A stretch of DNA of 64,000 nucleotides from Malacoraja senta (lineage: Eukaryota): the NCBI GenBank assembly GCA_038087875.1, contig CM075991.1, positions 9,612,001 through 9,676,000 of the forward strand, in the 5' to 3' direction. The position numbers were made by a program, and so were the translations under genes. The notes beneath the pieces are model-generated. The model did not search any database. It saw nothing but the letters and a program-made list of their open reading frames with translations, and had not been told where the DNA came from. Shown in pieces: positions 58,573-58,718 of this stretch (positions are counted from its first letter, which is position 1; each line of letters begins with the position of its first letter).

Positions 58573-58718
58573 GGGGGTGGGAGATTGCAACCTTCACGTG
58601 ATCCGCCCTGTTTCGACGAATGCAATCAACCCGGCGTGCACAATCAAATAAGATCAAATAGAACAAGTTGTCCCACAACTTTAGGCTGTGCACGCCATAC
58701 GCAAGAAGAAGAAGGCGG
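58573..58718 (+). mobile_element. Short ribozyme-headed non-autonomous retroposon with (AAG)n tail
   Basis: Flanked by direct repeat CATCAGT (58566-58572 and 58719-58725), (AAG)4 tail, inserted in an older LINE 3' fragment. Confidence 0.65.
58574..58627 (+). ncRNA. HDV/CPEB3-like ribozyme fold with minimal P4 and one P3 mismatch
   Basis: P1 GGGGTGG/CCGCCCT with G1-U wobble, P2 GATTGCA/TGCAATC, P3 ACC/GAT, L3 TTCACGT, J4/2 CGAA, all in canonical HDV order. Confidence 0.75.

What the first reader, a model, noticed from the sequence alone, without database searches (positions are those of the whole stretch)
58573..58718. SINE-sized retroposon headed by an HDV/CPEB3-like self-cleaving ribozyme
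Seen: 58574-58627 follows the HDV nested double-pseudoknot order exactly. P1 is GGGGTGG (58574-80) with CCGCCCT (58603-09), with a G1-U wobble at the cleavage position. P2 is GATTGCA (58583-89) with TGCAATC (58621-27), perfectly paired. P3 is ACC/GAT with one C-A mismatch. L3 is TTCACGT, a single G follows for P1.1, P4 is vestigial (TTTCGA), and J4/2 is CGAA carrying the catalytic C (58617). Downstream lie a 10-bp stem GGCGTGCACA/TGTGCACGCC enclosing a 7-bp hairpin, an (AAG)4 tail and the direct repeat CATCAGT on both sides. The insert starts 1 nt before the predicted cleavage site and shows no Pol III A/B box. Established: UUCACGU and CGAA are the L3 and J4/2 of the mammalian CPEB3 ribozyme, and HDV-like ribozymes process the 5' ends of R2 and RTE-type retrotransposons. 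Inference: a promoterless SINE that cuts itself out of read-through transcripts and borrows LINE machinery, possibly relevant to how CPEB3-type ribozymes spread in vertebrates. I cannot tell whether the family is already catalogued.
Basis: partly seen in the sequence, partly recalled or inferred. Interest (0 to 1): 0.85.

Follow-up and report, generated by a model that had tools for sequence, protein, structure and literature searches.

The report
Ribozyme-headed mini-retrotransposon derived from Vingi LINE
This is one of more than 5,600 copies of a 142-base jumping element made of the two ends of a larger Vingi-type retrotransposon; its head is predicted to be a self-cutting RNA, and sister elements in the same shark-or-ray genome match the mammalian CPEB3 ribozyme, which therefore likely began as such a transposon end.

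Summary
Observation confirmed; interpretation partly right. Window 58574-58714 is a copy of a ~142-bp repeat with at least 5,661 copies. Target duplications were found in 24 of 30 position-ordered copies, and 21 of those 24 abut G1. It is not a free-standing SINE. It joins the first ~77 and last ~40 bases of a 3-kb single-ORF Vingi-type LINE found here, like NARTc or R2 SIDEs. The HDV-like fold is inherited: seven Vingi-type families share it, with 121 of 126 cells paired and 15 of 18 pairs compensated. This copy has a broken P3; 425 copies carry the exact intact head. The 10-bp stem is a 5'/3'-UTR pairing conserved across the LINE families (1 of 5040 permutations). Cleavage and lack of a promoter are untested. 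This head does not match Rfam CPEB3, but sister Vingi heads and four other short families do (39 hits at or over the cut-off, best 64 bits), although CPEB3 was reported as unknown outside mammals.

The parts
58574..58627 (+). HDV-like ribozyme head with a 6-nt P4 remnant; predicted cleavage 5' of G58574, predicted catalytic C58617; P3 broken in this copy at 58601
   Evidence: 92% identical to the LINE head in L228 over window 58574-58650
58628..58650 (+). rest of the LINE-derived 5' block, holding the 5' arm (58633-42) of the end-to-end stem
58651..58667 (+). junction filler not aligned to the LINE (looks like a short tandem duplication plus the start of the 7-bp hairpin); part of the family-specific 21-mer used for counting
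   Evidence: origin of the filler is inference
58668..58702 (+). LINE-derived 3' block: last codons and TAG stop (58682-84) of the LINE ORF, and the 3' UTR with the 3' arm (58687-96) of the stem
   Evidence: 95.6% over 58668-58712 to L201/L208; 100% over 58675-58715 to L192/L205
58703..58714 (+). (AAG)4 tail
58562..58573 (+). left target-site duplication (decayed; exact core 58566-72; G58573 stands where the empty site has T)
58715..58726 (+). right target-site duplication (exact core 58719-25)
58393..58980 (.). unidentified high-copy host repeat into which the element inserted (right edge approximate)
   Evidence: tables 2, 5, 7

Best explanation
It is a non-autonomous retrotransposon made of the first ~77 and last ~40 bases of a Vingi-type LINE, whose HDV-like head is predicted to cut the RNA just before G1 and whose paired ends were likely copied into new sites by that LINE's enzyme. 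Shown: bipartite origin, copy number, TSDs, 5' ends at G1, (AAG)n tail, covarying HDV fold, and cognate 5'/3' complementarity. Inferred: a host or internal Pol II transcript is trimmed by self-cleavage to a unit-length RNA; the 5' arm pairs with the 3' UTR arm into a stem that the LINE protein recognises; the endonuclease nicks DNA and the reverse transcriptase copies from the AAG tail to G1. Family-A LINE copies found here are decayed and about as diverged as the short copies (mean pairwise identity 0.925 vs 0.926), so the two probably spread together and spreading is probably over. This copy has a P3 mismatch and is likely impaired and neutral.
For: Parent: a tail pattern found the ORF end upstream of the same tail; the same head precedes the endonuclease ORF in LINE copies; near-full-length copies L273 (with own TSD) and L271 give APE+RT and no RNase H hit. 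Copies: 5,661 exact junction matches, control 0. TSD 7-15 bp in 24 of 30, against 17 of 870 mismatched flank pairs; 21 of 24 at G1. Fold: 121 of 126 cells paired over 7 families, 15 of 18 pairs with both-side changes, shuffle mean 83, maximum 101 in 20,000; 93.9% paired vs 45-57% for slid partners on 12 distinct rows. The four common variants inside the head fall at fold-neutral places: J1/2, a P1 U-G/U-A swap, the P4 remnant, the free J4/2 base. End pairing: cognate 5'/3' assignment is best of 5040 permutations for all three window sizes. Precedent: NARTc keeps 77 + 30 nt of L1Tc and cleaves before +1 (PMC3383444); bipartite derivatives are known for RTE, Ingi, Vingi, R2 (PMC5786205); P4-less HDV-like ribozymes exist and cleave (PMC10879173).
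Against: No cleavage data: all four runs laid were contigs, and no pile-up of starts was listed. 5' ends at G1 would also result from transcription starting at +1 from an internal promoter. RNAfold cannot show pseudoknots and gives weak z-scores (-1.2 for this copy, -1.8 for L003). Only 8 of 30 position-ordered copies are fully intact, and 10 of 30 align from 1-19 nt inside G1. No intact family-A ORF was found (longest frames 421-436 aa), so the driver is inferred from shared ends. Family C shows weak end pairing. The clade name rests on architecture and one published 5' end, with no named Vingi protein in the tree. The seven families are related, so the shuffle counts are not probabilities.
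Confidence: 0.85

Rival explanations
1. Same origin, but the 5' end is set mainly by an internal Pol II promoter inside the head (as Pr77 in L1Tc/NARTc), and self-cleavage is secondary or slow because P4 is nearly absent.
For: PMC3383444 (abstract and passages) shows dual promoter/ribozyme function in the related Ingi-group head. Insertions are dispersed and on both strands (2865/2796). The window copy lies upstream of, and opposite to, the nearest gene.
Against: Base-pair covariation across seven families, including the single P1.1 pair (C-G to U-A in family G), and C at the first J4/2 position in all seven representatives point to selection on the RNA fold. This rival is compatible with the best explanation as an added function.
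Confidence: 0.25
2. One reading: an independently assembled, promoterless SINE that captured a CPEB3-type ribozyme and borrows RTE or R2 machinery.
For: L3 and J4/2 equal the Rfam CPEB3 consensus letters (alignments); an RTE family with an (AAG)n tail exists.
Against: Both ends align to one LINE family at 92-100%; the RTE 3' UTR differs; no RF00622 match for this head.
Confidence: 0.04
3. The short element is now driven in trans by a different, still intact LINE (Vingi-type families C, D, E or the Nimb-like family) that recognises the AAG tail.
For: Open frames of 886-1014 aa exist for other families and 1277 aa for Nimb-like; some short copies are 99% alike.
Against: Their 3' UTRs and end-pairing arms differ from this element's; short copies and family-A 3' ends have equal mean divergence.
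Confidence: 0.12

Closest known systems
NARTc / L1Tc (Trypanosoma cruzi; Ingi group) and RIME / ingi
   Same: Non-autonomous element keeping only the LINE's 5' HDV-like ribozyme and short 3' end; cleavage before +1 (PMC3383444, PMC4035085 passages).
   Different: Vertebrate host; 142 vs 263 nt; parent lacks RNase H; (AAG)n rather than poly(A) tail; thousands of copies; 5'/3' stem; promoter activity untested.
Non-autonomous Vingi-1_EE derivatives and other bipartite non-autonomous LINEs (RTE, Ingi, Vingi, R2 SIDE)
   Same: Internal deletion keeping both ends of a single-ORF LINE (PMC5786205 passages).
   Different: [quoted passage not shown] Repbase and Dfam could not be searched, so the family may already be catalogued.
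Mammalian CPEB3 ribozyme (Rfam RF00622)
   Same: HDV fold with 7-bp P1, 3-bp P3, 1-bp P1.1, same L3 and J4/2 letters.
   Different: This element has different P1, P2 and P3 sequences, almost no P4, and no model hit. Sister family D heads score up to 64.2 bits and short family S2 copies match 52-54 of 67 consensus positions (counted by hand from the printed alignments).
Vingi-2_Gav 5' end and SINE2-1_AMi body (crocodilians)
   Same: The published alignment shows the same L3 and J4/2 letters and a family-D-like layout at positions 2-74 of a named Vingi (supplement passage; fold read by eye).
   Different: SINE2-1_AMi has a tRNA head in front; this element has none. The passages read do not call that stretch a ribozyme.
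Minimal (P4-less) HDV-like and theta ribozymes
   Same: P4 absent or vestigial, catalytic C first in J4/2 (PMC10879173 passages).
   Different: Those are from metagenomes and phages, beside tRNAs; this one heads a vertebrate retroposon.
HE1, SacSINE1, SINE2-1_CM (elasmobranch and chimaera SINEs)
   Same: Short non-autonomous retroposons of cartilaginous fish (table in PMC3747384).
   Different: All have tRNA heads and CR1-type partners.

Membership tests
HDV-like ribozyme | Nested double pseudoknot order P1, P2, P3, P1.1 with G1 wobble pair | tested here: met
   18 of 18 pairs in L003 and L228; 17 of 18 in the window copy; independent model hit
HDV-like ribozyme | Covariation of the helices among relatives | tested here: met
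   15 of 18 pairs with both-side changes over 7 families
HDV-like ribozyme | C at first position of J4/2 and A at fourth | tested here: met
   7 of 7 family representatives (one extra G copy, L340, has G instead); 28 of 30 position-ordered short copies keep the C
HDV-like ribozyme | Mg2+-dependent self-cleavage 5' of G1 | not testable with these tools
   only contigs available; 5' junctions at G1 are indirect support
Bipartite non-autonomous LINE (SIDE) | 5' and 3' ends both derived from one autonomous LINE, ORF deleted | tested here: met
Bipartite non-autonomous LINE (SIDE) | Dispersed copies with variable-length TSD and microsatellite tail | tested here: met
Bipartite non-autonomous LINE (SIDE) | Mobilisation in trans by the parent protein | not testable with these tools
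   inferred from shared ends and equal divergence
Vingi clade (parent LINE) | Single ORF, ~3 kb, APE then RT, no RNase H (definition from PMC13708176) | tested here: met
   family A pieces; whole frames of C, D, E; the Nimb-like control does show RNase H
Vingi clade (parent LINE) | RT groups with named Vingi elements | tested here: inconclusive
   A, B, C, D, E, G form one clade (100/99) apart from Nimb-like and CR1/L2-like rows; F not included; no named Vingi or RTE row. Family D homologs include unnamed Anolis and Branchiostoma proteins
SINE in the strict sense (tRNA, 7SL, 5S or snRNA head, Pol III) | Small-RNA-derived head with A/B boxes | tested here: not met
   no box match; no such Rfam hit over the element; head is LINE-derived
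CPEB3 ribozyme RF00622 (this element) | Score at or over 35 bits | tested here: not met
   no hit at E<=10 or, for L003 and L273, at E<=0.05
CPEB3 ribozyme RF00622 (sister family D and short families S2-S5) | Score at or over 35 bits | tested here: met
   39 of 51 genome matches, best 64.2; the mammalian intron locus itself was not examined

The most novel reading that the evidence does not exclude
Vingi-type LINEs are a general vertebrate carrier of HDV-like ribozymes with a conserved end-to-end RNA stem, they repeatedly shed ribozyme-headed mini-elements, and the mammalian CPEB3 ribozyme is the domesticated 5' end of one such element; elasmobranch and crocodilian Vingi heads are its missing outgroups.
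Probability: 0.6. Interest if true: 0.88.

Novelty: new variant of a known kind. Interest (0 to 1): 0.76.

Why it matters
The element class is known from trypanosomes and insects, but three things go further. First, a vertebrate genome holds at least 425 exact, intact, nearly P4-less HDV-like heads from one family, which could cut host transcripts when in sense orientation. Second, the 5'/3' end stem, covarying across families, offers a reason why Vingi-type LINEs leave bipartite derivatives; Vingi UTR-flanked templates are in use for RNA-based gene insertion (PMC13708176). [quoted passage not shown] Sister heads here pass the Rfam cut-off by up to 29 bits, while six same-fold families do not match, and human DNA holds Vingi fossils (X12_LINE, PMC5753468). 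That makes the origin of this mammalian ribozyme directly testable.

Tried and rejected
Rfam scan of the copy: no ribozyme family. An apparent 894-bp family member in L029 is an older copy interrupted by a ~750-bp element with terminal inverted repeats; none of the other 19 loci of that middle carried head or tail beside it. RTE (DUF6451) as partner: 0 of 30 loci had this tail behind the ORF. Top Exo_endo_phos_2 hits were Nimb-like and CR1/L2-like; 0 of 20 fetched carried head or tail as their own end. The head-plus-foreign-sequence pattern returned variants and interrupted copies, not the LINE. Intron hypothesis: the most upstream DPYSL2 coding exon found is at about 49740-49455 on the minus strand, and no further coding exon was found in the next 100 kb; non-coding exons are not excluded. 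My first pair table mis-registered family E by one base (118 of 126); corrected. Ruminski 2011 (PMC3308841) and Kojima 2011 (PMC3002237) were not held, so what they say on Vingi ribozymes and UTRs is unseen. Repbase and Dfam are not available. The search of earlier findings returned nothing.

Full report
Observation. Rfam finds no ribozyme family over the copy. A covariance model made from 13 heads of other families ranks 58574-58611 first in the window (29.2 bits, rough E 3e-4). In a second search it also found the intended head in all 8 short-copy loci and both family-A loci given, one of two family-E loci weakly, and nothing in 4 control LINE loci.

Repeat family. A DNA search of the own genome gave 1255 candidates; the 40 scored were 95-100% identical with ends at about 58573 and 58714. 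A 21-mer spanning the family-specific junction occurs 5,661 times exactly (reversed control 0), so the true number is higher, perhaps about 10^4 (inference from 0.926 mean pairwise identity). The exact intact 54-nt head occurs 425 times. In the first 30 copies along contig C1, a TSD of 7-15 bp was found in 24 and ended directly before the G1 position in 21; mismatched flank pairs gave 17 of 870. Among the 30 best-scoring copies the figures are 27 and 20. Fully intact heads: 8 of 30 and 21 of 30. Twenty of the 30 align from G1, six from G2, four from further in. Contigs from four coded runs labelled as four organisms hold the element, with G at 58601 in about 99% of depth; one of them may be the source sample.

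Parent LINE. A pattern for the tail preceded by foreign sequence recovered many copies in which the tail follows an ORF end. Of 20 fetched, 19 were LINE 3' ends of varying length and one a second short derivative. Three of them had the ribozyme head in inverted orientation at the truncation point, one continuing into the endonuclease ORF. A search with that ORF start gave 28 candidates; most copies with a 5' end carry the same head. L273 runs from head to tail over about 2.8 kb with its own TSD; L271 gives frames with Exo_endo_phos_2 and RVT_1 and no RNase H hit. The short element aligns to the LINE over its first 77 bases (92%) and last 40-45 bases (95-100%). Family-A 3' ends (14 copies) and short copies (30) have equal mean pairwise identity, 0.925 and 0.926. 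No intact family-A ORF was found.

Clade. Single ORF, APE then RT, no RNase H matches the Vingi definition in PMC13708176 (passages). The published 5' end of Vingi-2_Gav has the same L3 and J4/2 letters (PMC5786205 supplement passage). Six of the seven families (F left out; E twice) form one RT clade apart from Nimb-like and CR1/L2-like rows. No named Vingi protein was in the tree, so the name is well supported but not proven.

Fold. A protein search exposed further families. One head each from A-G gives 121 of 126 cells paired and 15 of 18 pairs with changes on both sides, including P1.1 (after correcting the register of E). On a separate alignment without family A, 93.9% of cells pair against 45-57% for slid partners. 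The families are related, so these controls are not probabilities. Within the short family, the common head variants sit at fold-neutral positions, and non-CpG departures from the column majority are 1.5% in paired positions, 3.4% in other head positions and 4.3% elsewhere (local alignment trims some 5' mismatches). In families A, B and G an ATG formed by the last J4/2 base and P2 opens the frame leading toward the ORF; its use is untested.

End stem. The 10-bp stem joins a LINE 5' UTR arm to a LINE 3' UTR arm (z -4.6 for the 3' part of L003). Across seven families the cognate 5'/3' assignment was the best of 5040 permutations for each of three window sizes; C is the weak exception. I infer a closed RNA recognised by the LINE protein. 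I did not run a paper search aimed at this stem, so I make no claim that it is unpublished.

CPEB3. This element and families A, B, C, E, F, G gave no RF00622 hit at E<=0.05, while 5 of 5 family-D loci scored 40.7-64.2 bits (cut-off 35). Genome-wide, 51 matches were reported from 59 scored candidates, 39 at or over the cut-off, none in 14 control genomes. Of the top 30, 12 are family-D heads (10 with the endonuclease ORF behind) and 18 belong to four short families, S2-S5. S5 has TSDs at G1 and an AAG tail in 5 of 6 copies. Two S2 copies match 54 and 52 of 67 consensus positions, P4 included (hand count). The parents of S2-S4 were not found. Differences between family D and the model are mostly compensatory. 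PMC8233481 (passages and section 5) states the ribozyme was not found outside mammals. PMC7761336 (passages) proposes domestication of transposon ribozymes in general, naming no donor. PMC5753468 (passages) lists a Vingi fossil in human DNA. A search for 'CPEB3' with 'Vingi' returned 0 papers; searches listed no title or abstract opening on this family or this link. Subscription papers, patents, Repbase and Dfam were not searchable, and bioRxiv supplements are closed. I could not inspect the mammalian locus, so the origin is a hypothesis at about 0.6.

Context. The window holds DPYSL2 (CRMP2) on the minus strand; its closest named matches are ray and shark proteins. The copy lies about 8.8 kb upstream of the most upstream coding exon found, on the opposite strand, inside another repeat. 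With its P3 mismatch, nothing suggests a host role.

Mechanism and verdict. Shown: bipartite LINE origin, amplification with TSDs, 5' ends at G1, a covarying HDV fold and end pairing. Inferred: self-cleavage, transcription source, recognition and copying by the family-A protein. It works like NARTc or an R2 SIDE and is a member of that kind; it is not a SINE in the strict sense and not an RF00622 member. Other papers seen as passages only: PMC4035085, PMC3383444, PMC10879173, PMC10919898, PMC3277949, PMC8256844, PMC3391268, PMC3747384, PMC6765202. The labels Nimb-like, CR1/L2-like and RTE for the control LINEs are recalled from their architecture and come from no call.

Noticed in passing
L341-L370 (G000 matches to RF00622): Vingi family D heads and four further short ribozyme-headed repeat families (S2-S5) pass the mammalian CPEB3 ribozyme cut-off; S2 is closest in sequence, S5 is a ~175-bp P4-less element with TSD and AAG tail.
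   Followed up: partly
L165 and L210 (= L181); further rows: A second, independent ~140-bp internal-deletion derivative of the same family-A LINE, with a different junction.
   Followed up: partly
L324:3716-3915, L325:3769-3916: Family D copies with 4-6 tandem repeats of a 25-26-bp piece of the ribozyme 5' half in front of the complete head.
   Followed up: no
L198, L208, L209, L217, L226, L228, L234-L238: Many family-A LINE copies are 5'-inverted, with the ribozyme head flipped against the 3' part.
   Followed up: no
L324:733-3774 (-), L328:660-3617 (+), L321:1068-3725 (-): Long open Vingi-type frames (1014, 986, 886 aa) suggest recently active families.
   Followed up: partly
L130:2142-5972 and other rows: Young Nimb-like LINE family with many 1277-aa open frames (APE, RT, RNase H) and an (AAG)n tail.
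   Followed up: partly
L029:2098-2846: A ~750-bp high-copy element with short terminal inverted repeats nested inside an older copy of the short element.
   Followed up: partly
window 23900-49740 (-): DPYSL2 (CRMP2) gene, with short-isoform start at 43681 and a long-isoform first coding exon near 49740-49455.
   Followed up: yes
window 56500-56700: Long near-perfect inverted repeat that draws sub-threshold miRNA-family hits; probably a MITE-like repeat.
   Followed up: no
L331, L336, L340 (family G heads and tails): P1.1 is U-A rather than C-G, and the 3' UTR is also complementary to the 3' strand of P2, a possible switch.
   Followed up: no
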